DNA of 64,000 nucleotides from an uncultured Gammaproteobacteria bacterium (GCA_964491475.1 CAZBFO010000002.1:277841-341840); one strand, 5' to 3'; counted from the stretch's first letter, positions 15,683 through 42,900 are shown. Notes: generated from the sequence alone by a model not told the origin. Translations and numbers: made by a program.

Positions 15683-16417
15683 ATGTCTACACCTGCTCTG
15701 GAGCTCAAATCGGTGACGAAACGGTTCGGTCAGACGATTGCGGTCGAAAACTTGTCGCTGTCGCTCAAGGCCGGAGAAATGTACGGGCTCATCGGCCCGA
15801 ACGGCTCGGGCAAAACGACGACCATGAAGATGATTGCCGGACTGTACCGGCAGACCGGCGGGGACATTCTGGTGCAGGGCATGGACGTTCTGGTCGCGCC
15901 GACCAAGGCAAAGGCGAAAATCGGCTACGTGCCCGACGAGCCGGTCGCCTATGAGCTTCTTTCGGGGCGCGAATTCCTGCATTTCGTGGGCGAGCTGTAC
16001 GGCGTTCCGCGCCAGGAACGCGAGGGACGCATTTCGGCGCTGCTTTCGGCCTATCACCTCGAAGGCGTCGCAGACGGGCTGTTCATGCATTATTCCCGCG
16101 GCACCAAGCAGAAGCTGTCGATGATAGCGGCGCTGCTGCACGAGCCGTCGCTGCTGCTGGTGGACGAGCCGATGGTGGGTCTCGATCCCGAGTCCGCGCT
16201 GATCACCAAAAAGCTGCTGACCGATTTCGTGGCGAAGGGCGGCAGCGTGCTGCTGTCGACGCACACGCTTTCCGTCGCCGACGAGATCTGCAATCGATTC
16301 GGCATCATCAAGCATGGCAGGCTCATCGCCGAAGGCACGCATGCCGAACTGTCCGCCAAATCGGACCGTTTGGGCACCCTCGAAGACGTCTTCTTGGCGC
16401 TGACCGCCGGAGTATGA
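15683..16417 (+). CDS. ABC transporter ATP-binding protein (ABC-2/DrrA-like)
   Basis: Walker A (GPNGSGKTT), Q-loop, ABC signature (YSRGTKQKLSM), Walker B (LLLVDEP) and H-loop. Confidence 0.9.
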   Translation: MSTPALELKSVTKRFGQTIAVENLSLSLKAGEMYGLIGPNGSGKTTTMKMIAGLYRQTGGDILVQGMDVLVAPTKAKAKIGYVPDEPVAYELLSGREFLHFVGELYGVPRQEREGRISALLSAYHLEGVADGLFMHYSRGTKQKLSMIAALLHEPSLLLVDEPMVGLDPESALITKKLLTDFVAKGGSVLLSTHTLSVADEICNRFGIIKHGRLIAEGTHAELSAKSDRLGTLEDVFLALTAGV

Positions 16418-18093
16418 CCGCGGTATACGCCCTCATCGCCAACCGGCTGCGCATGATCGCCACCGCCGCGCACCGTTCGAGCTGGGCGCAACGTTTGGTC
16501 GCCGCTTGCTTCTTTGCCATCGGCGCGGCGCTGATGTTCGGCGCCTATCTGCTTTTCCGCCGCGCCTTCCGTTTCATCCTGTCGGATACGGTTTCCGGCG
16601 CGCTGTTGCTGCGGTACGTCCTCGATGCCGCCTTCGCCATCACCTATTTTCTGGGCGTTTCAAGCGTAATCGTCACCTCGAACTCCCTGCTGTTCGGCGC
16701 CGACGACTTGCGGCTGCTCGTCCCCAAACCCATCGGTTCGGCGTCGCTCTTTGCCTACCGTTTTCTTGCCGCGACCGCGGCTTCGTCATGGCCGGTGCTG
16801 CTCATCGCCTTCCCGGCTATCACGGCGCTGGGAGCGACCTTCGGCGCGTCGCCGCTGTTCGTGGTCGTCGGCCTGGCGGTGATGCTTCTGTTCGTCTGTT
16901 CGGTCACGATTCTTGGCGGGCTGCTCTCGTTCTTTCTCGCTTGGGCTTGCAGGCCGTTGTCGTTGGCATTCCGAAAATTCTTGGAATTGCTGGCGTTTTT
17001 CGTCTTCGGCATGCTGCTGGTCCGCAGGATCGTTCCTCGAGGCGTCTTTGCCCTGTTCAACGTGAATACGGCGGCAGAGGTCGAAGCGGCCGCCGCGAAA
17101 ATGCATGCTCTCTTCTCGCCGCTGCCCAGCCATCCGTTTGCGGCGACCGTTTCCGCACTGGTGCCCTCGGGGGCAGAGGGGCCGTTGGGCACGCAGCTCG
17201 CCCTCACCTGCGCGACGCTGCTCCTCGGGTTCGTCGTGCTGATGGTCGTCGCTTCGGCCGCCTACGTGCGGCTATGGCAGCGATACGGCGAGACGGGACT
17301 GACCGCCGGCGTGACGGATCGGCCCGCACGCCTCGGTTTCCGACAGCCGTTCCCGCGGGTGTTCCGATGGGGACACTCGTTCCTGTTCGAAAAAGACCTC
17401 TTGCTGTTCGTTCGCGACGGTGCCGCGGTTTCTCGCGCCGGTTTCCTGCTGCTGCTTCTGGGATTGTACCTGCTGATAGTCCGCGCGGTCATGCGCGCCG
17501 TCGACGGCCAAGTGACGGGACAGTTCTTCGCCCATGCCGTGACCTTCGCGTTCGCGGCTATCGGCTACTTCGTGCTGACGCTGACCTTGCGGTTCGTGTT
17601 TCCCGCCCTGTCGTTGGAGGGGCGCGGCGCATGGCTGGAATGGGCCAGTCCCGTGCACACGCACGAGCTTTTTTCATGGAAGGTGTTTTTCTGGACGTCG
17701 CTGTTCACCGTGGCCATGGAGACGGCAGCGGCGGCGGTCATGGCGCTGTTCAGGCTGCCGGCAGGGTTGAGCCTGGGGTTCGCCTACGCCACGTTCCTGA
17801 CCGTGCTGTCGCTGGTCACCTTCGGCATGGCCGCAGGTTCCGTCGCGCCCGACTTCCGCGCCAAGGATCCCGACGAAGTGGCGACCTCGCCGATGGGGCT
17901 CGCTGCCACGGCCGGCGGCGCCTTTTACCTGCTGATCATGGCTCGTTACGTCTTCGGCATGTCCGCCGCTGCGGCCTCGGGACAGGAATACGACGTGCTG
18001 GCGTTGGTGGGAATGACCGTCGTTTCCCTCACGGTCGTCGCCTCGTCATGGGCCATGGCGCTGCTCTTCGTGGACAGGCTGGAAGTGACTTGA
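16414..18093 (+). CDS. ABC-2-type transporter permease (polytopic, about 12 TM helices)
   Basis: An ATGA overlap with the ATPase gene. The protein is highly hydrophobic with many predicted helices. Confidence 0.7.
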   Translation: MTAVYALIANRLRMIATAAHRSSWAQRLVAACFFAIGAALMFGAYLLFRRAFRFILSDTVSGALLLRYVLDAAFAITYFLGVSSVIVTSNSLLFGADDLRLLVPKPIGSASLFAYRFLAATAASSWPVLLIAFPAITALGATFGASPLFVVVGLAVMLLFVCSVTILGGLLSFFLAWACRPLSLAFRKFLELLAFFVFGMLLVRRIVPRGVFALFNVNTAAEVEAAAAKMHALFSPLPSHPFAATVSALVPSGAEGPLGTQLALTCATLLLGFVVLMVVASAAYVRLWQRYGETGLTAGVTDRPARLGFRQPFPRVFRWGHSFLFEKDLLLFVRDGAAVSRAGFLLLLLGLYLLIVRAVMRAVDGQVTGQFFAHAVTFAFAAIGYFVLTLTLRFVFPALSLEGRGAWLEWASPVHTHELFSWKVFFWTSLFTVAMETAAAAVMALFRLPAGLSLGFAYATFLTVLSLVTFGMAAGSVAPDFRAKDPDEVATSPMGLAATAGGAFYLLIMARYVFGMSAAAASGQEYDVLALVGMTVVSLTVVASSWAMALLFVDRLEVT

Positions 18094-18171
18094 CCGCAGC
18101 TCGGTCCGGCAGCCGGCGATTGACATTCGGGCCGATGTGCGATAAGGCTGGGTTACGTTTTGGAGGTGATC

Positions 18172-18720
18172 ATGAAAGCAGAAATCCGGTTCCGCCTGCT
18201 GGCCCTTTCGCAAGTTTCCTACGAATCGGCACGCTACGCCCACGACGCGATTAAGCGGCGGCTGGGCCTCGCTCCCGAGAAGTCGGTCATAGTCAACGTG
18301 CCCGACGGCACCCCCTTCCGCGAGCTGCAGGTCACGCAAGGTCTTTCCTCGTCTGACCTCCTGCTTTCCTGCAAGAAGCTGTGGAACAACAGCATCGCGC
18401 GGGGTCACGTGAATCCGTACCTGTTCTGCGGCGTCATCTGTGACAGTTATCCGGAGCTGGAGGACCGCACGGTGGTCGCCGACAACCGGCAGCTGCTGCG
18501 CATCGCCATGCGTCATGCCGCCGGCATCGTCAAAATGGGGGCGCGGCGCAGCGCCTATCTGCCCGCCTTCGTCGACGCCCAGATGGCGCACCTTTCCGGT
18601 TGTCAGGGCTGCATTGACGCCGTCCTGGCGCGCATCCGCGCCGGCCTGCGCACACGCAGCGGCATCCGCGCGATGCTCGAACACGCCGGGCTGCGCCGTC
18701 CCGCTTCGCCGCCGGTCTGA
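18172..18720 (+). CDS. Hypothetical cytoplasmic protein
   Basis: A GGAGGTG RBS lies 4 nt upstream of ATG 18172 (the TTG at 18160 is rejected). GC3 is high. No known domain. Confidence 0.5.
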   Translation: MKAEIRFRLLALSQVSYESARYAHDAIKRRLGLAPEKSVIVNVPDGTPFRELQVTQGLSSSDLLLSCKKLWNNSIARGHVNPYLFCGVICDSYPELEDRTVVADNRQLLRIAMRHAAGIVKMGARRSAYLPAFVDAQMAHLSGCQGCIDAVLARIRAGLRTRSGIRAMLEHAGLRRPASPPV

Positions 18721-18726
18721 ACCTTT

Positions 18727-18756
18727 CCCCTGCATTGCCAGGGGATTTTTGTTTTT
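18727..18756 (+). terminator. Rho-independent terminator
   Basis: CCCCTG-CATTGC-CAGGGG hairpin followed by ATTTTTGTTTTT. Confidence 0.55.
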
Positions 18757-18778
18757 GGTCGGCGCGGAAAGGCTTTTT

Positions 18779-18787
18779 TGCTATACT
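18779..18787 (+). promoter_or_regulatory. Extended -10 element TGCTATACT
   Basis: An exact 9-mer shared with the sites at 35668, 38851 and 48092. It lies about 56 nt upstream of the adhesin A start and just after the upstream terminator. Confidence 0.45.
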
Positions 18788-18842
18788 GCCAGCATTGCCT
18801 ACGGGCCTCGTCGTTTCAATCACTTCTTTCGCTTGTCACGAT

Positions 18843-21314
18843 ATGTCGTTCATCAGGCGTTTCGCGCAGAGGATGCTTGCCGTCGTCGGGGTCGCCGCGG
18901 CGGTGGCCGCGTCGGTTTTTGCGCTTTCCGGATCGGTCTCATTGGCGCAGACGGGTGCTGCCCCGAAGATACTGACCGGCCCCACGGTCAGCAGCATCAC
19001 CGAGGATTCGGCCATCATTCGGTGGACGACCGACGTAGAAAGCACCACCGTGGTCGATTTCGGCACCACCGACTCGCTCGGGCAGACCTATCGAAAGATC
19101 ATCCCGATCGAAGAGACCGAGGTGACGGAGATTTCGCACACGATGACGCTGTCTCCGTTGAAGGCGGGCACGCGCTACTTCTTCAAAGTGTCCTCCTCGA
19201 CTTCCGGCGGCACAGCGTCTTCGGCCATCGTCGACTTCACTTCTGCCAGCCCGGCTTGCGGTCCTGACGCCTGGACTTGCACCGACTGGAGCGCCTGTGA
19301 GAAGGGCACCGGCGGCAGCTACGGCCAGACTCGCTCCTGCAGCGTGTCGGCGGCCTGCGCCGACGCGGGAGTACCAAAGCCGCAGACGTCGCAATCCTGC
19401 ACGCCCGCCTGCACCGAGGACACCTGGACCTGCGGAAATTGGCAGGCATGCTCGGCCGGCGGCACCCAGACCCGCGCCTGCACCTTGACGACCGATTGCC
19501 CGACGGCAAGCACGCCCAAGCCAGCCACTTCGCAGAGCTGCAGGCGGCCTTGTACTGCGGACGATTGGAAGTGCGGCGAGTGGGGCGATTGCAGCAAGGA
19601 GACGCAGACGCGCTCTTGCGCCCTGCCGACCACCTGCTCGGGCACGCCAGCCAAACCGGCCGAGAGCCAAAAGTGCGTCATGCCGAAACCGGCGTGCACC
19701 GACAAGGATTGGATTTGCGGAGAATGGGGCGCTTGTTCGGCCGACGGGAAGGCGAAGCGCGACTGTTCCTTGCCTACGACCTGCCTGCCCGTAAAGCCTG
19801 ACGAAAAAACCCGCTCCGAAATCAAGGACTGCCCGCCAGCCGGTGCCGAAGGCGACAAAAAGCCCGAAGAGCCGGCGAGTCCGACCGGGCAAGACCTGAA
19901 CGAGCCGCTGCCGCCCGACGCGAACGTGCCCTTCTCTCCCTCCGAGCCTCCCGCACCTCCGGTCCCGCCGCTTTCGGCGAGCACCGTTCTGGGCGGCGGC
20001 GACGAAAGCGCGGCGCTGCTGAAGGAATGTGCCGACAACAACATCGGTCCCGACCGTTGCCCGGCTTGGCTCGATGCCAAATATGGCGACCGTTCTTGCG
20101 AGGAAAACGGTATCTTCTCGAAGGAAGCCTGCGTTGCGTTCCTGCGCAAGACGCATGGGGGAACGGTTCCGGGCTGCGAGGGTAAGACCGAGGCGGAATG
20201 CAGCGAGATTTTGGCCCGCATGATGGCCGGCTACATGCCGGGAGACATGCATGACGAGATCGACGCCATGATCGGTACGACGAAGGCCGGCGAGATGTTT
20301 GACGCGCTCGGCGATGCGGCCCCGTCTGTGCTTGCCGTTCGTGCCAGCCACAAGGACAAGGTGCGCTGGTGGCCGTCCAAGCGCTCCGGCGATCAGGAGA
20401 CTTCGCCGGGAATGTTCGTCATCGACACCGATAAGGACGGCCTGCCGGACGACGTCGAGAAGCGGCTGGGCACCGATCCGAACGTTCCCGATGCGGCCGT
20501 CGCTCGTGAGATACTGAAGAAGTTCTTCGAGGCCGGCGACAAGCCTGCGCCGGAGCAGTTGGCCGTCCGCGAAAGGCTGAAGTCGTTCTTCGAGACGGGC
20601 GATAAGCCGTCCCAGGACGACGCCCGCGCGGCGATGGCCGCCTTCTTCGGCCCCGGCACGCCGCCAGGCAGCGTCAACGCCATCGACGCGGCGTTCATCC
20701 TCGGCTTGGCCGTCGGCCAGCCGACGGGGTCGGGTACCACGGACGACAGTTTCACCGTCGACGCCACCAGTTCGCCTGACGCCGCCGACGGCGGAGGCAT
20801 CACGCTGCACGGCCATGCGGCACCGGGCGCCGTGATCTTCCTGTACGTCTACAGCTACGTGCCGATGGTGCTGACCACCACCGCCGATGACAGCGGCAAC
20901 TACCAGTACGACATTTCCGACAACGTCGTCGACGGTTCGCATACCGCCTACGTGGCCCTGGTCGACGGCGCCGGCGACGTCGCCGCGAAGAGCAGGCCGC
21001 AGTCGTTCTTCGTGAAGACCGCCTTGGCAGTCACCGAAAGCGATTTCCTTGCCACCGACGCCAAGTTGACGCCGACCACGCCCGCTTCGAAAGCTACCAG
21101 CGTCTACCTGTACGGGGTCGCCGCGCTGTTGCTGGTCGCGCTGATTGCCGTCGGGTTCGTAATGCGGGGGACGCGGAAGCGGAAGGGCGCGGCACCGTCG
21201 CCCACGGGTCCGACGCCTCCGAAACCTCCTGCTCCACCGCCCACCGCTCCGCCAGCGCCTCAAACGCCGCCGGCACCGCCTGCGGCATCACCGCCCGCAG
21301 CACCGCCACGATAG
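18843..21314 (+). CDS. Giant surface protein, paralog A. Domain order: signal peptide, FN3-like domain, four TSP1-like Cys/Trp repeats, a Cys-rich module, a TSP3-like Asp box, an Ig-like domain, a TM anchor and a Pro-rich tail.
   Basis: Signal peptide MSFIRRFAQRMLAVVGVAAAVAASVFA. FN3-like ILTGPTVSSITEDSAIIRWTT...TRYFFKV. Four repeats of C-x3-W-x-C-x2-W-x2-C...QTR-x-C. DTDKDGLPDDVEKRLGTDPNVPD. The Ig-like domain ITLHGHAAPGAVIFLYVYSYVPMVLTTTADDSGNYQYD is homologous to the C-terminus of the 38869..42900 protein. TM helix VYLYGVAALLLVALIAVGFV followed by a proline-rich tail. Confidence 0.75.
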   Translation: MSFIRRFAQRMLAVVGVAAAVAASVFALSGSVSLAQTGAAPKILTGPTVSSITEDSAIIRWTTDVESTTVVDFGTTDSLGQTYRKIIPIEETEVTEISHTMTLSPLKAGTRYFFKVSSSTSGGTASSAIVDFTSASPACGPDAWTCTDWSACEKGTGGSYGQTRSCSVSAACADAGVPKPQTSQSCTPACTEDTWTCGNWQACSAGGTQTRACTLTTDCPTASTPKPATSQSCRRPCTADDWKCGEWGDCSKETQTRSCALPTTCSGTPAKPAESQKCVMPKPACTDKDWICGEWGACSADGKAKRDCSLPTTCLPVKPDEKTRSEIKDCPPAGAEGDKKPEEPASPTGQDLNEPLPPDANVPFSPSEPPAPPVPPLSASTVLGGGDESAALLKECADNNIGPDRCPAWLDAKYGDRSCEENGIFSKEACVAFLRKTHGGTVPGCEGKTEAECSEILARMMAGYMPGDMHDEIDAMIGTTKAGEMFDALGDAAPSVLAVRASHKDKVRWWPSKRSGDQETSPGMFVIDTDKDGLPDDVEKRLGTDPNVPDAAVAREILKKFFEAGDKPAPEQLAVRERLKSFFETGDKPSQDDARAAMAAFFGPGTPPGSVNAIDAAFILGLAVGQPTGSGTTDDSFTVDATSSPDAADGGGITLHGHAAPGAVIFLYVYSYVPMVLTTTADDSGNYQYDISDNVVDGSHTAYVALVDGAGDVAAKSRPQSFFVKTALAVTESDFLATDAKLTPTTPASKATSVYLYGVAALLLVALIAVGFVMRGTRKRKGAAPSPTGPTPPKPPAPPPTAPPAPQTPPAPPAASPPAAPPR
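19255..19832 (+). repeat. Four tandem ~47-aa thrombospondin type-1-like repeats (protein level) within adhesin A
   Basis: CGPDAWTCTDWSACEKGTGGSYGQTRSC, CTEDTWTCGNWQACSAGGTQTRAC, CTADDWKCGEWGDCSKETQTRSC and CTDKDWICGEWGACSADGKAKRDC, each ending ...PKP..SQ.C. Confidence 0.55.
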
Positions 21315-23463: not shown

Positions 23464-25128
23464 TCACCGTTTGGCGCGGAAGGTCTGCATGTTGGCGTCG
23501 AACTGCGCCTTTTGCTCGGCCGTCAACATTCCCGGACCCTTGGGATTGTAACCGCCTTCCACCTCCCGGCCGTCTCCGAAGCCGTCACCGTCGGTGTCGG
23601 CCTTGAGAGGGTCGGTGCCGTAGACGTAGATTTCTTCTCCATCGGAAAGGCCGTCGAGGTCGGTGTCGGCGACGTTGGGGTTGGTGTTATAGACCATGGT
23701 CTCCTGCTCGTCGGACACGCCGTCGCCGTCGGTGTCGGCAGAAGGAGCGGCATCCGTTTGCGGGGCTTCGGCAGGAAGGGGATTCGACGGCGACGGCTGT
23801 TGTTCGGGGACGTTCGTCGCCGATGGCGGGGCGGGCACTGTCGTGGTGACGGTCTTTTCGTCCGGCGGTACCGTCGTCGGCTGCGGAGCCACGTCGAAGC
23901 CGTTGAGGCTAAGCGTATGGGGTCCTTTTGCGAAAGCCAGTACGCCCTGCTCCAGGGTGAAGCTGATGACGAAGGTCAGGTCCCGTTTCTGGTAACCGTA
24001 CCCAGGACCGTCGGGGTCCTTCGGTACCGTCTTCAGGTACCTTGGCGAAAGCTGGTCGAGCGAATCCGGATACGCCTTGTTGTCGCTGAACCAGCTGCCT
24101 AGCGCCAGCTTGATCATGTTCACGTCACCGTAACGCTGCAAGTCGCGTTCTTCGGGGGTGCTGGCGTACTTGGGAGGGGCGGTGACGGGCGCCGCCGAAG
24201 GTTCCCTGGCCTGCCGCTCGCCGAACGGGGCGTTGACGCTGATCTTGGTGAGGTCCGCAAGGTTGAACTTGGCGCGAGTCAGGAAGAAAACCGGCAGGGC
24301 TATGATGCCGACGAGACAAAACGCGCCGAGCGCCGCCAGGATGCGGTAGAAAAGCTTGCGCGAGGGCTTGACCGTCCATTCTTTTCCCACGACGGCCACG
24401 CAGTCCTCGTAGAACGTCTGCAGGTAGATGAGGTAGAAGGGGGAGAACAGCGCCGCGAACAGCCAACTTGCGGCCGAGGCCGCCGGCGAGACGAGTGCGG
24501 GCTTCGTGACCCAAGCTGCCGCCGCAGCGATGCCGCTGAACGCCAGGCCGATGATGCCGCCCATGACGGCAAGTCCCAACTGGTCGAAGAGCAGCGTAGT
24601 CGTGCGGCCGTATATCAGGTCGCGGCTTCGGGCCAGTGCCTCGACGCCCTTGCGGCGTTCATTGATGACGACGTAAACGGTTAACGTGAACCGGACGGCC
24701 ATTATCACCGCCGGGACGATCAGAAGGGAGGGCAGGAAGATGACCAATGAAAAAACAAACGTCGTGAAGATACCGGGAAGCAAGGAACCCAGACCTCGGC
24801 TGAAAGCCCTGCCGAATCGGAGTTCTCCGGCGGCGACCGCCACCAGCACGTAGGGTGCCAGCAAAGACGCCACAAAGCCGACGATGCCCAGGCCTGCAGC
24901 GGGGGCGGCCGGCAGATGGCCGCGCATCGCGGCCAATATGATGGAGGGCAGGCCGGTGACGCCGCTGATGAGCACGAACATGCCTAGCGAGGCCCGATAC
25001 CGTATGAAGGTCCTGTGCAGCCTGTCCTTCATCGGCGGAAAGATCACGGGCTTCACGAAGCCAACCGACGGCGCGGCTGGCACCGGCTGTGCGGGTTGTG
25101 CCGGAGTCACGATGGGTTCGGCTGGCAT
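23464..25128 (-). CDS. Chimeric membrane protein, paralog B: a polytopic N-terminal TM domain, a type IV pilin-like globular domain and three C-terminal TSP3-like Asp-rich calcium-binding repeats
   Basis: Six to eight TM helices in the first ~300 aa. Pilin-like motif ERDLQRYGDVNMIKLALGSWFSDNKAYPDSL...YLKTVPKDPDGPGYGY. C-terminal DTDGDGVSDEQE...DTDLDGLSDGEE...DTDGDGFGDGRE. Confidence 0.65.
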   Translation of the reverse strand: MPAEPIVTPAQPAQPVPAAPSVGFVKPVIFPPMKDRLHRTFIRYRASLGMFVLISGVTGLPSIILAAMRGHLPAAPAAGLGIVGFVASLLAPYVLVAVAAGELRFGRAFSRGLGSLLPGIFTTFVFSLVIFLPSLLIVPAVIMAVRFTLTVYVVINERRKGVEALARSRDLIYGRTTTLLFDQLGLAVMGGIIGLAFSGIAAAAAWVTKPALVSPAASAASWLFAALFSPFYLIYLQTFYEDCVAVVGKEWTVKPSRKLFYRILAALGAFCLVGIIALPVFFLTRAKFNLADLTKISVNAPFGERQAREPSAAPVTAPPKYASTPEERDLQRYGDVNMIKLALGSWFSDNKAYPDSLDQLSPRYLKTVPKDPDGPGYGYQKRDLTFVISFTLEQGVLAFAKGPHTLSLNGFDVAPQPTTVPPDEKTVTTTVPAPPSATNVPEQQPSPSNPLPAEAPQTDAAPSADTDGDGVSDEQETMVYNTNPNVADTDLDGLSDGEEIYVYGTDPLKADTDGDGFGDGREVEGGYNPKGPGMLTAEQKAQFDANMQTFRAKR

Positions 25129-38829: not shown

Positions 38830-38850
38830 CGCCCGTGCTTGGACGGGAAG

Positions 38851-38859
38851 TGCTATACT
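38851..38859 (+). promoter_or_regulatory. Extended -10 element TGCTATACT for giant surface protein C
   Basis: The ATG at 38869 is 10 nt downstream. Confidence 0.45.
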
Positions 38860-38868
38860 TTTCGCGGT

Positions 38869-41800
38869 ATGCCAGCCAAAAAGACCCGGTCGCGAAAATC
38901 GTCCAAACCGTCGGCGGAGCACGGCGACTCCGTCCTGTTGCGATTGGCCGTCGGGGCGGTCCTGCTGGGCATGGTCTGGGCCGCAGTTCCGCTGGCGAAA
39001 GCGCTGACCACCACCATCACTTCCGTCGTCGATCAGGCGTTTTCGGCGGCGGTGACCGCGCCGTCGTCAGGCTCGACCATCAGCGGAACGGTGCCGTTGG
39101 AGGCGCGGGTCGCGGCTGCGGCGAGTTCGGGGATATTCACGCTTTCCGGCGGTCCGAACGGTTTGCAACAGCCCATACAGGGCACGCAAGACGCTTCGGA
39201 CGCGCTGAAGTGGACGGCCAAGCTTGATGCTTCCGTGCTTGTTGCCGGCACCTATGCCCTGGGATTTTCCGCCGTGCGCGCCGTCGACGGGCTGACAGCC
39301 AGTTCGCCGCAGATTTCCCTGATCGTCGCCGATCAGGCGCCGGCCAAGTACGTCATCACCTTCGTGTCGCCCAGATCGGGCTCAACGGTATCCGGCACTG
39401 TCGCGCTCACGGCCGGCGTGAACCTGGCAGCTGACTCGCTGACCTACGTCGTCACGCCCGTAGCCGGCGGGGGATTGGTAGAGTTGAAGTCGTCTTTTGA
39501 CGGCACGAACGGCACTTGGGTCGGCAGCTGGAATACCGCCGAATTTCCGAATGGCACCTATACCGTGGTGCCCCACGCCTTTCACGCCGCCGTGATGGAA
39601 GTGGGCGACCCCGTTACCTTGACCGTCAGCAATGCCGCTCCGCCTCCGACCTTCACCGCGACCGTGCGGACGCCCGCCTCGGGCAGCGCGCTGAAGGGCA
39701 TCGTGACGTTCAGCTCCGTCACCAACCTGGCCGCCACCGGCCTTGCCTATGTCGTGACCGATGCCGGCGGCGCGCCTGTCGCTTCGCTGAACGCCGCTCC
39801 TTCTAACGGCAGCCTGCAATGGGACGCGACTTGGGACACGACGGCAGTATCCAACGGCACCTATTCGCTCAAGGCCACCTCGATCCGTACGGGCGCGCAG
39901 GCGGAGGCCGGCCCGGTTTCCTTCACGATCGCCAACCAGGCCGCGTCGACGTTATTGACCGTCCTGATGGCCGCGCCGGCCAAGGGCGCGGTGGTCTCTG
40001 GCAGCGTGCAGGTGTACGCGCAGACTTCCCTGGCGGCAGACAGCCTTTCCTTCACCATCACCCAGACTTTCGGCAGCAAGCACGTCACGCAGCTTGCGGC
40101 GGCAGGAGGTCCGACCTCCTGGTATGCCGCCTGGGATTCTTCGGCATTGGAGCCGGGGGCCTACCTCATTCACGCCACGGCCCTGAAGGGCACGGGAACG
40201 AACGTGAGCGACGACGTCGCTTTCAGCGTCACGGCGCCGTCCGCCGGATCGCCGACGCCGGTCTCCGCTGCCGTCAACGTCACGGTGCCGGTTTCGGGCG
40301 CGACGGTCGCCGGTCAGATGAGCCTGGCTGCGCGCACGGACTCCGCCGTGGACCTCGCCGGGTTTGAGTTGCGCAACGCCGTCGCGCCGGACGCGGCGCC
40401 TGTCGCCACGGTGGCTGCCAGCGGAGCCGACGGCGGTACCTCGTGGACGGCGACGATGAACACTACCGCCATTCCCGACGGCGAATACGTGGTGGTGGCC
40501 GTCGTGACCCGCAACGGCGTGAAAGCCTCCAGCGCGGCCGTTCCCGTGCATTTGAAGAATCTCACCAGCGGCCAGGCGGCCGTGCCCTCTTTTGAAATCC
40601 GATCGCCCGCGCCCGGCGCCTCGGTCTCCGGCATCGTGCCTTTCTACGCCTCATCCTCGGCCGCCATCGACGGGCTGGCCTTCATTCTTCAGGGGCCGAC
40701 AGTACCCGGCAGCAGGATGGCGTTGCCGGCTACCGGCAACGCCGAAAAGACCGCATGGACGGTCAATTGGAATTCCGGAACGGTGCCCGACGGCAGCGTC
40801 TCCCTGTCGGCCGTGGCTTCGAAATCGGGACATGAGTCCGAGGGGGCGCCGCGCGCGTTCACGGTCGCCAACGGCGCTTCGGCCCCGGTGCAGCCTCCTC
40901 CGACCGCCACCGCGCCTCCGGCAGCGGCCACGACCTTCAAGGTGACCGTGGTCAATCCGGTGACCGGACAGATTTACGCCGGACAAGTGCCATTGGCCGC
41001 CGCCGTCGACGGCGGCACCGCGCTGAACGTGCGGTTCACCGTCGGTGCCGCGAGCGGCGGTGCCGTGGCGGACATCGACGCGCATTTCGATTCGAAGACC
41101 AAGCGCTGGGTGGCGCTCTGGAAGCCAGACGCCGCCGCAACCGGCACTTACGTCGTGACGGCGACGGCCCAAAATACCAGAGGCCAGACGGCGCAAAGCG
41201 AAAGGGTCAAAGTGCTTTTCGGCGCTTCTAGGCCGGGGGAGCCAGCCGCGCCCGGATCGCCGCCGTCGCCGCCGGAGGTGCCGAAGCCCGTCGTTTCGGG
41301 AGAAAAAGCGGCGCTCATCGTGAAAATCTCCTCGCCTGTCGCTTCGTCGGTATTGCGCGGACCGGCGGTACTTGCCGCAGACGCAGAGGGCGCGGCTGAA
41401 GTCGGTTTCGCCATCCGCCCGATCAAAGAAGGGGAGGCGACGACTCGACGCGCGGCCAGCGACGGAACGCGCTGGGTCGCTTATCTCGACACCACGGCAA
41501 TTCCTGACGGCGATTACGAAATCGAAGCTTCGGCCGTCGACGCCGCCGGCAATCGCGCGGTCTCGCAGCGTCTGCCTTTCGGCGTGCGCAACGCGGGCGG
41601 CGGGGCGCCCGTGAGCAGGGTGGACGTCGTGCCTCCCGCGGCAGTAGTCGCTTCGGTGCTCGAACGGCCGCAAGGATCCGTCTCGCTTTCCGCCGATCCG
41701 CTGCCGCAGTCCGTTTCGGACGCGACCGACCAGCTCAATGCCGACTGCATCGCCAGGAAAGTTCCCGCCGAGAGGTGTTCCGAATGGTTGGCTCGGCAGT

Positions 41801-42900
41801 CGGAGCGGCAGGAATGCGCGGCCGCCGGCATCGTCACCAAGGAAGAGTGCCTTGCCTATCTGAAATCCAAGCGCGGCGGACAGGTGGCAGCCTGCGAAGG
41901 CCGCACCGACGAAGACTGCGCCAAAGTCGTGGCCATCGCCACCGCCGACCTGATCTTTGACGCCGACCTGCGCGCTTTGCGCGACGCTGCCTTGCAGAAC
42001 GTGGGACGGGTGCTGCAAATGCCCCCGCGCGGCAAGCAGGCAGCAGGCGGCGGGGACATTCCTCCGGCGCCGCCCGGATTGGCAGACCTTTCGCCTTTCG
42101 CGGGAGAAGCGCCGGTGAACGTCGGCTTGCACGCCTCGCCCGGTTTCGGCACGACCGACGGCAACGTCGCCCATCAGAACCTGCCGGCCTTCGTAATGGT
42201 CGACACCGACGGTGACAACTTGCCGGACGACATCGAGCTCCGCCTGGGAACCGATCCGCGCAATCCCGATTCCGACGGCGACGGCTACAACGACGGCTTG
42301 GAAGTCGAACGCGGCTACAATCCGCTCGGTCCGGGGGCGCTTCTTGGGAACGTGACCTTGGCGCCGGTCGATCAGGCGGTCATCTCCGGCATTGCCATCG
42401 AGCAACCGACTGACGCGGGAACGGTCGCGCCTGACCTGAAGGTGGAGACGGCAGTCGCCCAAAAGGAAAAGGAAGGCACCTTCACCATCGGGGGCCGCGC
42501 CAAGCCGCACGACGTCGTGACGGTGTTCGTCTACAGCTACCTGCCGGTCGTGTTCACTACCGCCGCCAAGGACGACGGCACCTGGACCTACGATCTCGGA
42601 ACGGGCCTGGCCGACGGGCAGCACGAGGCCTACGCGACCGTGACCGACGACACGGGAAAGATTTCCGCCAAGAGCGAACCGCTGTCGTTCTTCGTCTCCG
42701 GCGCGAAGGCCGTGACGCAGGATGAATTCTTCAATCCCTCCTCGTCGCCGCTTTCCGCCGCGGCGGTGGCGGCACCCAGCCAGGCGCTGCTCGGCTGGTA
42801 CATCGGCGCAGTGGCGATGCTGATGGGCATCGCGCTGGTCGTCTCGTTCCTGCTGTTCATGCGGCCAAAAAAGAATCAGCCGCCTCCTCCGTCGCAATAG
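38869..42900 (+). CDS. Giant surface protein, paralog C (1343 aa). Domain order: signal/TM, about 9-10 tandem Ig-like domains, a Cys-rich module, TSP3-like Asp boxes, an Ig-like domain, a TM anchor and a Pro-rich tail.
   Basis: A repeated ~100-aa unit (P.SGS.VSGTV.L.A...L.YVVT...W....W.T....NGTY). The Cys module DCIARKVPAERCSEWL...ECAAAGIVTKEECLAYLKSKRGGQVAACEGRTDEDC is homologous to paralog A. DTDGDNLPDDIELRLGTDPRNPDSDGDGYNDG. TM helix WYIGAVAMLMGIALVVSFLLF followed by KKNQPPPPSQ. Confidence 0.8.
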   Translation: MPAKKTRSRKSSKPSAEHGDSVLLRLAVGAVLLGMVWAAVPLAKALTTTITSVVDQAFSAAVTAPSSGSTISGTVPLEARVAAAASSGIFTLSGGPNGLQQPIQGTQDASDALKWTAKLDASVLVAGTYALGFSAVRAVDGLTASSPQISLIVADQAPAKYVITFVSPRSGSTVSGTVALTAGVNLAADSLTYVVTPVAGGGLVELKSSFDGTNGTWVGSWNTAEFPNGTYTVVPHAFHAAVMEVGDPVTLTVSNAAPPPTFTATVRTPASGSALKGIVTFSSVTNLAATGLAYVVTDAGGAPVASLNAAPSNGSLQWDATWDTTAVSNGTYSLKATSIRTGAQAEAGPVSFTIANQAASTLLTVLMAAPAKGAVVSGSVQVYAQTSLAADSLSFTITQTFGSKHVTQLAAAGGPTSWYAAWDSSALEPGAYLIHATALKGTGTNVSDDVAFSVTAPSAGSPTPVSAAVNVTVPVSGATVAGQMSLAARTDSAVDLAGFELRNAVAPDAAPVATVAASGADGGTSWTATMNTTAIPDGEYVVVAVVTRNGVKASSAAVPVHLKNLTSGQAAVPSFEIRSPAPGASVSGIVPFYASSSAAIDGLAFILQGPTVPGSRMALPATGNAEKTAWTVNWNSGTVPDGSVSLSAVASKSGHESEGAPRAFTVANGASAPVQPPPTATAPPAAATTFKVTVVNPVTGQIYAGQVPLAAAVDGGTALNVRFTVGAASGGAVADIDAHFDSKTKRWVALWKPDAAATGTYVVTATAQNTRGQTAQSERVKVLFGASRPGEPAAPGSPPSPPEVPKPVVSGEKAALIVKISSPVASSVLRGPAVLAADAEGAAEVGFAIRPIKEGEATTRRAASDGTRWVAYLDTTAIPDGDYEIEASAVDAAGNRAVSQRLPFGVRNAGGGAPVSRVDVVPPAAVVASVLERPQGSVSLSADPLPQSVSDATDQLNADCIARKVPAERCSEWLARQSERQECAAAGIVTKEECLAYLKSKRGGQVAACEGRTDEDCAKVVAIATADLIFDADLRALRDAALQNVGRVLQMPPRGKQAAGGGDIPPAPPGLADLSPFAGEAPVNVGLHASPGFGTTDGNVAHQNLPAFVMVDTDGDNLPDDIELRLGTDPRNPDSDGDGYNDGLEVERGYNPLGPGALLGNVTLAPVDQAVISGIAIEQPTDAGTVAPDLKVETAVAQKEKEGTFTIGGRAKPHDVVTVFVYSYLPVVFTTAAKDDGTWTYDLGTGLADGQHEAYATVTDDTGKISAKSEPLSFFVSGAKAVTQDEFFNPSSSPLSAAAVAAPSQALLGWYIGAVAMLMGIALVVSFLLFMRPKKNQPPPPSQ
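39050..41270 (+). repeat. About 9-10 tandem ~100-aa Ig-like (Big-like) domain repeats (protein level) in surface protein C
   Basis: Recurrent SGSTVSGTV.L.A....AADSLTYVVT...W.A.WDT.A.PNGTY... units. The nucleotide sequences have diverged. Confidence 0.55.

What the first reader, a model, noticed from the sequence alone, without database searches (positions are those of the whole stretch)
19255..19832. Four tandem thrombospondin type-1-like (TSR-like) Cys/Trp repeats in a bacterial protein
Each ~47-aa unit follows C-x3-W-x-C-x2-W-x2-C-x(4-9)-QTR-x-C-x-L/V-x-T-x-C...PKP..SQ.C. The W-x2-W spacing, the conserved G..QTR.C and the six-Cys pattern recall the TSR layered Trp/Arg fold (WSxWSxW...CSxTCGxGxxxRxRxC). 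Bacterial TSR-like repeats are rare and have been implicated in adhesion to host matrices. Position-by-position conservation of the Cys residues across the four repeats argues for a disulfide-stabilised extracellular module.
Basis: partly seen in the sequence, partly recalled or inferred. Interest (0 to 1): 0.6.

Follow-up and report, generated by a model that had tools for sequence, protein, structure and literature searches.

The report
Bacterial thrombospondin-repeat-like six-cysteine modules
A surface protein of an uncultivated (CPR/Patescibacteria-type) bacterium carries four small six-cysteine modules whose predicted fold resembles the animal thrombospondin type-1 repeat, and they belong to a large bacterial repeat family that the Pfam and NCBIfam libraries searched here do not match.

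Summary
Four tandem units of 42-48 aa (first to last Cys), six Cys each, lie at nt 19251-19832 in the frame of one gene (18843..21314 +). That gene encodes a signal peptide, an FN3-like domain, the four repeats, a Pro-rich linker, a Cys-rich segment, a TSP3-like Ca motif, an Ig-like domain and a C-terminal TM anchor.

- No Pfam TSP_1-type model matches, even at E<=10.
- The Trp spacing is W-x4-W, not W-x2-W.
- Only one Arg is conserved, and the CSxTCG motif is absent.
- The repeats are acidic, unlike heparin-binding TSRs.

An AlphaFold2 model of one repeat (pLDDT 93.5) is a three-stranded ribbon.
- Most Foldseek matches are also TSR proteins, but none is significant.
- A profile-profile comparison aligns the core W-x2-C-S...G-x-Q-x-R-x-C and beats 200 of 200 shuffles.

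The repeat is not rare. A profile finds 1555 cluster representatives, with up to 17 repeats per protein. Named ones are CPR bacteria, and 29 of 66 scanned carry a trypsin-like protease domain.

A four-Cys variant lacks Cys2 and Cys4 together, which implies a Cys2-Cys4 disulfide.

The most likely role is a disulfide-stapled extracellular adhesion or spacer module. This is a new variant of a known fold.

The parts
18843..21314 (+). Gene for the 823-aa surface protein. The mechanical ORF starts at TTG 18735. The ATG at 18843 is the start used in public gene calls.
   Evidence: ORF list. P0007 is 100% identical over 823 aa. The gene is called as 823 aa on a Logan contig. GC3 is 0.79, as in the neighbouring genes.
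18843..18947 (+). N-terminal signal-peptide-like segment (MSFIRRFAQRMLAVVGVAAAVAASVFALSGSVSLAQ).
   Evidence: Hydrophobic window at aa 10-35. The cleavage site is inferred from the sequence and was not predicted with a dedicated tool.
18978..19241 (+). FN3-like / purple-acid-phosphatase N-terminal-type beta-sandwich domain.
   Evidence: Pfam Pur_ac_phosph_N, E 2.4e-7, 31.6 bits (cut-off 30). fn3, E 8.7e-5. Both at aa 82-169 of the 859-aa ORF.
19251..19406 (+). TSR-like six-Cys repeat 1. It has a 4-5-residue insertion in the A-B loop relative to the other repeats.
   Evidence: Family HMM 41.3 bits, E 4.6e-14. Sequence. Strands A/B/C predicted in the four-repeat model.
19401..19544 (+). TSR-like six-Cys repeat 2, the closest of the four to the family consensus.
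19548..19682 (+). TSR-like six-Cys repeat 3.
   Evidence: Family HMM 46.0 bits, E 1.6e-15..
19686..19832 (+). TSR-like six-Cys repeat 4, the most divergent (AKR for QTR, longer C-terminal loop).
   Evidence: Family HMM 35.4 bits, E 3.2e-12. Strands 168-174 and 188-194 of the four-repeat model.
19833..20027 (+). Pro/Glu/Ala-rich linker with no predicted domain.
   Evidence: Sequence. No Pfam hit.
20028..20201 (+). Second, unrelated Cys-containing segment (six Cys, aa 432-489 of the ORF). It opens the C-terminal cassette shared with a paralogue in the window.
   Evidence: Cys positions. Aligned with conserved Cys to the protein at 38839..42900.
20424..20489 (+). Thrombospondin type-3-like Ca-binding motif (DTDKDGLPDDVEKRLGTDP). 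It is unrelated to the type-1-like repeats.
   Evidence: Pfam TSP3_bac, E 2.5e-5, 24.5 bits, just under the cut-off of 25.
20805..21005 (+). Bacterial Ig-like domain.
   Evidence: Pfam Big_13, E 9.7e-5, 23.2 bits, below the cut-off of 27. It is conserved in the paralogue and is listed as PF19077 for orthologues.
21099..21167 (+). C-terminal transmembrane helix (SVYLYGVAALLLVALIAVGFVM), followed by a basic RGTRKRK stretch and a Pro-rich tail that runs to 21311.
   Evidence: Hydropathy windows at aa 750-777 of 823. The topology (tail inside the cell) is inferred from the positive-inside rule.

Best explanation
The four units are small extracellular modules held together by disulfide bonds. Their predicted shape is a three-stranded ribbon like the thrombospondin type-1 repeat (TSR).

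Predicted layout of one repeat:
- An irregular first strand carries two Trp (C-x4-W-x-C-x2-W-x2-C).
- A second strand carries the invariant G-x-Q-T-R-x-C.
- A short third strand ends in Q-x-C.

The repeats belong to a large bacterial repeat family. The named members are from CPR/Patescibacteria. The family has diverged so far from eukaryotic TSRs that no Pfam TSP_1-type model detects it. It is best described as a TSR-like fold family, not as a member of Pfam TSP_1.

Disulfide pairing is inferred as follows:
- Cys2-Cys4 cross-links strands A and B. This rests on strong co-occurrence.
- Cys3-Cys6 is the bottom cap, equivalent to the TSR W-x2-C...C pair. This is weak.
- Cys1-Cys5 is the top cap, as in 'group 2' TSRs. 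This follows by elimination.

In this gene the modules sit in the N-terminal half of a protein anchored by a C-terminal TM helix. They follow an FN3-like domain and precede a linker and a conserved anchoring cassette.

Most likely mechanism (inferred, not shown): after Sec export the Cys are oxidised and the four modules form a semi-rigid, protease-resistant, multivalent segment. That segment presents the FN3-like domain and itself contacts a partner surface, such as a host or neighbour cell envelope or a polymer. In many other family members the same modules would tether a secreted trypsin-like protease to its target, in the way TSRs serve ADAMTS proteases.
For: Real coding repeats:
- The four units are in frame and each has six Cys.
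- The family HMM hits only these four places in the window.

Family:
- Homologues include CPR proteins named by their sources as Falkowbacteria, Paceibacterota and Kerfeldbacteria.
- A profile search of 1.84 billion cluster representatives gives 1555 with E<=1e-3, 432 with E<=1e-10 and 83 with E<=1e-30, with up to 17 matched stretches per protein.
- Most listed members begin with a signal-peptide-like N-terminus.

Fold:
- The AF2 single-repeat model has pLDDT 93.5, and all five models score 90.6-93.5. It has three strand regions.
- The four-repeat model has pLDDT 83.9 and repeats the same strand pattern four times.
- Foldseek gives MIC2 TM 0.61/0.60, plus Unc5A, properdin and C6.
- The four-repeat query again puts properdin, pleiotrophin, C6, C8, MIC2, Sema5A and TSP-1 near the top.

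Sequence link:
- hhalign against eight PDB-verified TSRs gives probability 57% and 44% (E 1e-4 and 2.4e-4) over the W-x2-C-S...G-x-Q-x-R-x-C core.
- 0 of 200 column-shuffled controls reach the observed score.
- The only PDB sequence hit of the family profile is the pleiotrophin TSR-like domain, at E 0.2.
- Recurrent sub-threshold Pfam hits go to TSP1_ADAMTS, PTN_MK_C and TSP1_CCN.

Disulfides:
- Among 623 repeats, Cys2 and Cys4 are both present in 555, both absent in 67, and unpaired in 1. When absent they are replaced by Tyr plus Ile/Val.
- P0015 alternates the six-Cys and four-Cys forms within one protein.

Modular, accessory role:
- Orthologues carry 4, 4, 3, 2, 1, 0 and 0 canonical repeats.
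- Among 66 family members, 29 have Trypsin_2, 8 Trypsin, 7 Laminin_G_3, 6 Pur_ac_phosph_N, 5 Big_13 and 3 TIG.
- The C-terminal 430 aa form a cassette shared with another surface protein in the window that has a different ectodomain.
Against: - No TSP_1-family Pfam model matches the window repeats at E<=10. No NCBIfam model does either.
- I could not see which part of the large hit chains was aligned.
- The structure is a prediction. AlphaFold may be drawn toward a TSR geometry by the W/C/R motif. I had no access to coordinates, so Trp-Arg stacking and S-S distances were not checked.
- Defining TSR motifs are absent: WxxWxxW, RxRxR and CSxTCG.
- The best shuffled hhalign controls (20.2 and 20.6) come close to the observed scores (22.8 and 20.7).
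- The repeats are acidic (pI 4.6-5.1; family mean net charge -2.1). The basic-groove and glycosaminoglycan-binding mechanism of classical TSRs therefore does not transfer.
- No binding partner, expression data or disulfide-forming enzyme was identified. Pfam scans of about 40 window ORFs returned no thioredoxin-, Dsb- or VKOR-type family.
- Loss of all repeats in some orthologues fits a dispensable spacer as well as it fits an adhesin.
Confidence: 0.6

Rival explanations
1. Analogy, not homology. The units are an independent bacterial invention: a small disulfide-rich beta-ribbon that only superficially resembles a TSR. Few stable shapes are open to a 45-residue, three-disulfide peptide with aromatic residues.
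Against: The structural hits are highly specific: 13 of 14 among 48,164 chains. A second method gives the same protein families. The aligned motif W-x2-C-S...G-x-Q-x-R-x-C lies in the same structural position as in TSRs (the end of strand A, the turn, then strand B) and beats 200 of 200 shuffles. The pleiotrophin TSR-like domain is the only PDB sequence hit.
Confidence: 0.25
2. A pure spacer. The modules have no ligand of their own and serve only as rigid, protease-resistant length elements that set the distance between the FN3-like tip and the membrane, or between domains of secreted proteases.
For: Copy number varies from 0 to 4 among orthologues that otherwise share the same architecture. 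Arrays reach 17 copies. Surfaces are acidic and Thr/Ser/Pro-rich. Short P-x-C or direct C-x2-3-C joints connect consecutive units.
Against: In this protein the repeats lie in the N-terminal half, far along the chain from the C-terminal membrane anchor, and a separate Pro-rich linker is already present. Several non-Cys positions are strongly conserved across the family (Q22 78%, T23, D31, K39, P40 93%). That is more than a spacer needs, although these residues may be structural. The frequent fusion to proteases and lectin-like domains resembles targeting modules.
Confidence: 0.3
3. A recent horizontal acquisition of a eukaryotic TSR (a 'eukaryote-like' domain) by a host-associated bacterium.
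For: TSRs are best known from animals and apicomplexans (PMC2173040, PMC3417536).
Against: Eukaryote-trained HMMs give no match. The family is large and diverse, with bacterial domain partners such as Trypsin_2, Big_13, TIG and SLH. GC content and GC3 are those of the surrounding genome. The repeats within the gene are old, at 56-62% DNA identity.
Confidence: 0.04
4. An artefact: a non-coding or wrong-frame pattern, or a chance Cys-rich translation of GC-rich DNA.
For: High-GC DNA gives many long spurious ORFs. One example is the 774-aa antisense ORF at 18939..21263.
Against: An identical protein exists in public gene calls. There are orthologues at 72%, 39% and 37% identity, and hundreds of homologous repeats elsewhere. 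GC3 is 0.79 in this frame.
Confidence: 0.01

Closest known systems
Thrombospondin type-1 repeat (TSR; Pfam TSP_1 PF00090 and relatives TSP1_spondin, TSP1_ADAMTS, TSP1_CCN; structures 1LSL, 3R6B, 7YYK)
   Same: - About 45-55 aa, extracellular, six Cys, usually in tandem arrays.
- The predicted fold is a three-stranded antiparallel ribbon, with Trp on the first strand and a conserved Arg on the second.
- The core W-x2-C-S...G-x-Q-x-R-x-C aligns.
- A Cys sits at the start of strand A, as in 'group 2' TSRs. A Cys also lies between two Trp on strand A, as in the C-terminal TSRs of complement C6-C9 (PMC2173040).
- It is often an accessory module of secreted proteases, as in ADAMTS proteins.
   Different: - No HMM match.
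- W-x-C-x2-W replaces WxxWxxW.
- There is one Arg instead of RxRxR.
- The second Cys of CSxTCG and the O-fucosylation motif are missing.
- The inferred pairing is 1-5, 2-4, 3-6, against 1-5, 2-6, 3-4 in TSP-1.
- The surface is acidic rather than basic.
- The host is bacterial.
Midkine / pleiotrophin TSR-like domains (Pfam PTN_MK_C PF01091; 8VOI_B, 2LUT)
   Same: - The only PDB sequence found by the family profile (E 0.2). The alignment is C..Y.F..WG.C...KTRT, which closely matches the four-Cys variant CTSWTYSAWGACS..GQQTRT.
- Sub-threshold PTN_MK_C hits in 5 of 150 members, best E 0.0099.
   Different: - Those are basic heparin-binding cytokine domains of vertebrates, present as two domains rather than long arrays.
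- No hit reaches threshold.
Apicomplexan TRAP/MIC2-family TSRs (8J64_B, 4OKU)
   Same: - The best compact structural match: MIC2 (49-aa chain) with 42 residues aligned at 2.2 A and TM 0.61/0.60.
- Those proteins, as generally described, are type-I membrane adhesins. The protein here also has a C-terminal TM anchor.
   Different: - Eukaryotic parasites, part of a gliding-motility adhesin.
- The sequence motif WxxWxxC...RxR is retained there and not here.
Bacterial TSP3 repeat (Pfam TSP3_bac PF18884)
   Same: It occurs in the same protein (aa 564-585 of the ORF) and in two neighbouring surface proteins. It is also named after thrombospondin.
   Different: It is an unrelated Asp-rich calcium-binding loop motif (type-3 repeat). 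It has no Cys/Trp pattern and lies outside the finding.

Membership tests
Pfam TSP_1 (PF00090) and sister models TSP1_spondin, TSP1_ADAMTS, TSP1_CCN | Profile-HMM match at or above the gathering score. | tested here: not met
   hmmscan of the 193-aa repeat region at E<=10 returned 0 families. Among 150 family repeats there are only sub-threshold hits: TSP1_ADAMTS in 9 (best E 0.036) and TSP1_CCN in 1 (E 0.075).
TSR fold (Tan et al. 2002, PMC2173040) | Three-stranded antiparallel fold with an irregular A strand and regular B and C strands. | tested here: met
TSR fold (Tan et al. 2002, PMC2173040) | WxxWxxW motif on strand A forming the W layers. | tested here: not met
   The family consensus is W-x-C-x2-W: two Trp at i and i+5, with a Cys (or Tyr in the four-Cys variant) between them.
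TSR fold (Tan et al. 2002, PMC2173040) | Arg ladder (RxRxR) on strand B stacking between the Trp (the CWR layers). | tested here: inconclusive
   A single Arg is about 95% conserved (Q-T-R-x-C).
TSR fold (Tan et al. 2002, PMC2173040) | Six Cys forming three disulfides that cap the top and bottom of the layered core. | tested here: inconclusive
   Six Cys per repeat is met. Cys2-Cys4 is inferred from co-occurrence (555 both present, 67 both absent, 1 unpaired). That pair is a mid-stack A-B cross-link not seen in TSP-1. The other two pairs are inferred only weakly. No experimental map exists.
TSR (group 1) modification motifs | CSxTCG with the POFUT2 O-fucosylation consensus C-x2-(S/T)-C-x2-G. 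| tested here: not met
   The second Cys of the motif is absent: W-x2-C-S-x2-G-x-Q.
Classical heparin-binding TSR, midkine and pleiotrophin | A positively charged recognition face. | tested here: not met
   The repeats have pI 4.6-5.1. The family mean net charge is -2.1.
Pfam PTN_MK_C (PF01091) | Profile-HMM match at or above threshold. | tested here: not met
   5 of 150 members hit at best E 0.0099. The family profile against the PDB finds pleiotrophin at E 0.2.
Bacterial six-Cys/four-Cys TSR-like repeat family defined here (alignments A3 and A5) | The consensus C-T-x-D-x-W-x-[C/Y]-x2-W-x2-C-S-x2-G-x-Q-T-R-x-[C/IV]-x5-C-x7-P-x3-Q-x-C, with a significant HMM match. | tested here: met
   All four window units score 35-61 bits, E 3e-12 to 2e-20. 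The window sequences were part of the seed alignment. However, homologues were first found independently by phmmer, and the profile finds 1555 other cluster representatives.
Secreted or surface-exposed protein | An N-terminal export signal and/or a membrane anchor placing the repeats outside the cell. | tested here: met
   Hydrophobic N-terminal segment at aa 10-35 and a C-terminal TM at aa 750-777, followed by a basic stretch. Most family members start with signal-like sequences. No dedicated signal-peptide predictor was available.

The most novel reading that the evidence does not exclude
The thrombospondin type-1 / midkine fold may not be a eukaryotic invention. It may have a large, ancient bacterial sister family, centred on the ultrasmall episymbiotic CPR/Patescibacteria. 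There it would be a standard building block of surface adhesins and secreted proteases that contact host cells. The four-Cys form (W-x-Y-x2-W...Q-T-R-T) would be the link to eukaryotic TSR and midkine domains.
Probability: 0.3. Interest if true: 0.65.

Novelty: new variant of a known kind. Interest (0 to 1): 0.5.

Why it matters
If the fold assignment holds, this widespread extracellular repeat of uncultivated bacteria gets a structural identity. At least 1555 clusters at 50% identity carry it, and Pfam and NCBIfam gave no match to it here. That helps to read the many 'hypothetical' surface proteins and secreted proteases of CPR bacteria. As generally reported, their lifestyle depends on attaching to other cells. 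It would also extend the known range of the TSR/midkine fold deep into bacteria and raise the question of where that fold originated. Practically, the alignment built here could seed a new domain model. The six-Cys/four-Cys pair gives a testable prediction for the disulfide map.

Tried and rejected
It was repeated with 19254.
- A single-repeat profile run through the word-indexed search gave nothing at E<=0.01, because a 47-column profile cannot reach significance against 5.8 billion sequences. The exhaustive representative search worked instead.
- phmmer of the repeat region against PDB sequences found nothing.
- The wider 150-sequence profile against the PDB gave only noise: an LDL-A-like hemoglobin linker and a Fab.
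- The AFDB Foldseek library was not available. No comparison with predicted bacterial structures was therefore possible.
- An exact look-up of P0007 found no record. The locus was recovered through the neighbouring gene.
- tblastn against phage genomes found no match.
- The GTDB genome scan found only one distant relative, in a Paceibacterota MAG.
- Cluster look-ups gave almost no names.
- Seven literature searches for bacterial or CPR type-1 repeats found nothing relevant.
- Weak single-member Pfam hits (Nodulin_late, TNFR_c6, Ldl_recept_a, EB, zinc knuckles) were considered and rejected as Cys-composition noise.
- A glycosaminoglycan-binding mechanism was rejected because the modules are acidic.
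Full report
**1. The observation**

The window is about 63% G+C. The finding lies inside one long ORF, 18735..21314 on the + strand. Public gene calls start it at the ATG at 18843, giving 823 aa. P0007 is 100% identical over that length. A Logan contig carries the same gene between the same neighbours.

Translating 19254-19832 gives four consecutive units with six Cys each, 24 in all. Aligned to each other they are 37-51% identical. The invariant columns are six Cys, two Trp, one Arg and P-K-P.

At DNA level the units are only 56-62% identical. Tandem Repeats Finder reports no array of that period. They are therefore old duplications, not an assembly artefact.

A family HMM run over all six frames of the window finds exactly four matches and nothing else above noise:
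- 19251-19406
- 19401-19544
- 19548-19682
- 19686-19832

These score 35-61 bits.

- The first spacing is C-x4-W, not C-x3-W.
- The two Trp are W-x-C-x2-W (i and i+5), so there is no W-x2-W.
- Repeat 4 has AKR in place of QTR.

**2. The protein around the repeats**

Pfam finds three further elements:
- an FN3-like / purple-acid-phosphatase-N domain just before the repeats (aa 82-169 of the ORF; E 2.4e-7)
- a thrombospondin type-3-like calcium motif (TSP3_bac, aa 564-585; just under threshold)
- an Ig-like Big_13 domain (aa 691-757; sub-threshold)

NCBIfam gives nothing.

Hydropathy shows two hydrophobic segments. One is a signal-like N-terminus, at aa 10-35 of the 823-aa protein. The other is a C-terminal helix at aa 750-777, followed by RGTRKRK and a Pro-rich tail. 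The inferred topology is a C-terminally anchored surface protein. The FN3-like domain and the four repeats lie in its N-terminal half.

The last 430 aa or so are a cassette made of a second Cys-containing segment, the TSP3-like motif, the Ig-like domain, the TM helix and the tail. This cassette is shared at 30% identity (E 4e-44) with a 1353-aa protein at 38839..42900. That protein carries Ig-like arrays instead of the FN3-like domain and repeats.

Orthologues with the same overall architecture carry 4, 4, 3, 2, 1, 0 and 0 canonical repeats. One of them (P0009) has two more divergent units by eye. The repeat block is therefore a modular, variable insert in a conserved scaffold.

The neighbouring genes give no functional hint. 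They include an ABC ATPase and permease, an AI-2E-family transporter, housekeeping genes and another TSP3_bac protein.

**3. The family**

phmmer with the repeat region finds short CPR proteins with one or two copies of the same unit. Sources name them Candidatus Falkowbacteria and Candidatus Paceibacterota.

A 15-sequence single-repeat profile was scored against all 1.84 billion cluster representatives. It finds 1555 of them at E<=1e-3, 432 at E<=1e-10 and 83 at E<=1e-30. Some have up to 17 matched stretches. One further named member is from Candidatus Kerfeldbacteria. The nearest GTDB genome hit is a Paceibacterota MAG.

Most listed members start with a signal-like N-terminus.

From 623 extracted repeats the consensus is:

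x-C-T-x-D-x-W-x-C-x2-W-x2-C-S-x2-G-x-Q-T-R-x-C-x4-D-C-x6-K-P-x3-Q-x-C

Conservation figures come from a non-redundant subset of 269 repeats:

| Position | Conservation |
|---|---|
| W13 | 96% |
| R24 | 95% |
| P40 | 93% |
| Q22 | 78% |
| G20 | 77% |

Among 66 family members, Pfam finds these partner domains:

| Domain | Members |
|---|---|
| Trypsin_2 | 29 |
| Trypsin | 8 |
| Laminin_G_3 | 7 |
| Pur_ac_phosph_N | 6 |
| Big_13 | 5 |
| TIG | 3 |

Single cases include subtilase, SLH, CARDB, NHL and others. None of the precomputed or newly computed Pfam annotations covers the repeat itself.

**4. A four-Cys variant and the disulfide inference**

Some relatives carry a related unit, C-T-S-W-T-Y-S-A-W-G-A-C-S..G-Q-Q-T-R-T-I...C...Q-S-C. 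These include P0018, P0019 and every second unit of P0015. This unit lacks the second and fourth Cys.

Across the 623 repeats, Cys2 and Cys4 are both present in 555, both absent in 67 and unpaired in only 1. The Fisher p-value is 6e-90, not corrected for relatedness. When absent, they are replaced by Tyr plus Ile/Val/Ala.

This is strong indirect evidence for a Cys2-Cys4 disulfide bridging the first and second strands. A hydrophobic pair can substitute for it.

Two repeats lack Cys3 and Cys6 together. This is weak evidence for Cys3-Cys6, and it leaves Cys1-Cys5 by elimination.

P0019 lies next to a B12-dependent methionine-synthase-like gene and contains cytochrome-c motifs. P0018 lies on a 1.79-Mb contig beside a pilin/TIG protein. 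P0019's context suggests that the four-Cys form may not be confined to CPR bacteria.

**5. Is it a TSR?**

*Sequence level.* No TSP_1-type Pfam model matches the window repeats even at E<=10. Among 150 diverse family repeats only sub-threshold hits occur:
- TSP1_ADAMTS: 9 members, best E 0.036
- PTN_MK_C: 5 members, best E 0.0099
- TSP1_CCN: 1 member
- obvious Cys-composition noise, such as Nodulin_late in 11 members

The family profile against all PDB sequences finds one chain, the pleiotrophin C-terminal TSR-like domain, at E 0.2. A wider profile finds only noise.

I assembled eight TSRs whose sequences I verified against PDB entries (TSP-1 TSR1-3 and properdin TSR1-5). Profile-profile comparison gives probability 57% (E 1e-4) and 44% (E 2.4e-4). 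The aligned segment is W-x2-C-S...G-x-Q-x-R-x-C. None of 200 column-shuffled TSR alignments reaches the observed score. However, the largest shuffled scores come close: 20.2 against 22.8, and 20.6 against 20.7.

*Structure level.* AlphaFold2 on repeat 2 with a 48-sequence repeat alignment gives pLDDT 93.5. All five models score 90.6-93.5. The strands lie at residues 7-10, 21-23, 26-30 and 43-45. This is one short irregular strand carrying the Trp, a long second strand with the Arg, and a short third strand.

A four-repeat model built from only five sequences has pLDDT 83.9 and repeats that pattern four times.

- complement C8 alpha, C8 beta, C6, C7 and C9
- MIC2 (49-aa chain; 42 residues aligned at 2.2 A)
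- pleiotrophin and midkine
- TSP-1 TSRs
- Sema5A TSR3-4
- a POFUT2-TSR fusion

Foldseek gives no significant E-value. Its list is Unc5A, properdin, MIC2 (TM 0.61/0.60), C6/MAC and Elapor1. The four-repeat query gives the same proteins on top with more noise.

All scores are low, as expected for a domain of about 45 residues. The argument rests on the specificity of the hit list, not on any single score. I could not see which part of the large chains was aligned, and I had no access to model coordinates.

*Defining features.* I compared the repeat with the features in Tan et al. 2002 (PMC2173040).

The predicted three-stranded ribbon and the six Cys are shared. The following are absent:
- WxxWxxW
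- the RxRxR ladder
- CSxTCG
- the basic face (pI here is 4.6-5.1; family mean net charge is -2.1)

Two details do have precedents in that paper:
- A Cys at the very start of strand A characterises 'group 2' TSRs and midkine.
- A Cys between the first two Trp of strand A occurs in the C-terminal TSRs of complement C6-C9.

The W-x2-C...C-terminal Cys pair corresponds to the TSR bottom cap (Cys429-Cys466 in TSP-1 TSR2).

My conclusion is that this is a TSR-like fold family with a faint but non-random sequence link. It is not a member of Pfam TSP_1.

**6. How it most likely works**

Shown:
- The repeats are coding, conserved and numerous.
- They sit in proteins with export signals.
- Cys2 and Cys4 co-vary.

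Predicted:
- The fold is a TSR-like ribbon.

Inferred:
- After Sec export the Cys are oxidised.
- The four modules form a semi-rigid, protease-resistant, multivalent segment in the N-terminal half of a C-terminally anchored protein.
- They present the FN3-like domain and probably contact a partner surface.
- In the many protease fusions they would act as targeting or tethering modules, in the way TSRs do in ADAMTS enzymes.

Because the modules are acidic, the glycosaminoglycan-binding mechanism of classical TSRs is unlikely to apply.

The copy-number variation among orthologues, including zero, keeps a pure-spacer role as a serious rival. Pfam scans of about 40 window ORFs returned no thioredoxin-, Dsb- or VKOR-type family. 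The rest of the genome was not available.

**7. Novelty**

Seven full-text searches found no description of type-1-like repeats in CPR or other bacteria. The library is incomplete, so this is not proof.

Pfam (2025 copy) and NCBIfam (2026) do not match the repeat. I could not query Gene3D, SUPERFAMILY, ECOD or AFDB, any of which might already link it to TSRs.

I rate it a new variant of a known kind. It is a large, unmodelled bacterial branch of the TSR/midkine-like fold with its own Cys pattern.

Interest is moderate. It is useful for annotating CPR surface proteomes and relevant to the origin of the TSR fold. However, it rests on predicted structure and weak scores, and there is no functional evidence.

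Noticed in passing
window 38839..42900 (+) compared with 20001..21206 of the finding's gene: A 1353-aa surface protein (Big_7, Big_3_3, Big_13, TSP3_bac) shares its C-terminal ~430 aa with the finding's protein (30% identity, E 4e-44). The shared part comprises a Cys-containing segment, a TSP3-like motif, an Ig-like domain, a TM helix and a basic tail. It looks like a common anchoring cassette carrying swapped N-terminal ectodomains.
   Followed up: partly
window 20028..20201 (+): A second, unrelated six-Cys segment (C..DRC..WL...C...G..SKE.C..FL....GG..PGCEG.TE.EC) has Cys conserved in the paralogue and in orthologues. It has no Pfam match. Its fold and role are unknown.
   Followed up: no
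window ~20505..20642 (+): A short internal repeat, LKKFFEAGDKP...LKSFFETGDKP(...AAFFGPGTPPG), follows the TSP3-like motif. The same 'LKSFFEKGDKPT' unit recurs in orthologues P0009 and P0010. Orthologues P0011-P0013 instead have ordinary Asp-rich TSP3 repeats at that place.
   Followed up: no
window 23464..25128 (-): A 554-aa protein two genes downstream has two TSP3_bac repeats (E 1.5e-14) and a weak match to the Ca-binding domain of binary toxin B / anthrax PA. It is a third TSP3-bearing exported protein within 25 kb.
   Followed up: no
window 18939..21263 (-) and other long antisense ORFs: A 774-aa ORF runs antisense across the whole gene. It is one of many long shadow ORFs in this 63% G+C window. 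Codon-position GC (GC3 0.79 on the + frame) and the homologues support only the + strand gene.
   Followed up: yes
P0015 (755 aa): One trypsin-like protease alternates four-Cys and six-Cys versions of the repeat (4-6-4-6-4-6) in a single array. This may mean a two-unit super-repeat was the unit of duplication.
   Followed up: partly
P0019 / L005 699-3029: The four-Cys variant occurs seven times in a protein that also has CxxCH cytochrome-c-type motifs. The gene sits next to a B12-dependent methionine-synthase-like gene. This context does not look CPR-like, so the repeat family may extend beyond CPR bacteria.
   Followed up: partly
window 15683..18093 (+): An ABC ATPase gene and a large ABC_tran_2-type permease gene overlap by 4 bases and lie ~750 bp upstream of the surface-protein gene on the same strand. 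A 182-aa ORF with no family match (18160..18720) lies between them and the surface-protein gene. No evidence of a functional link.
   Followed up: no
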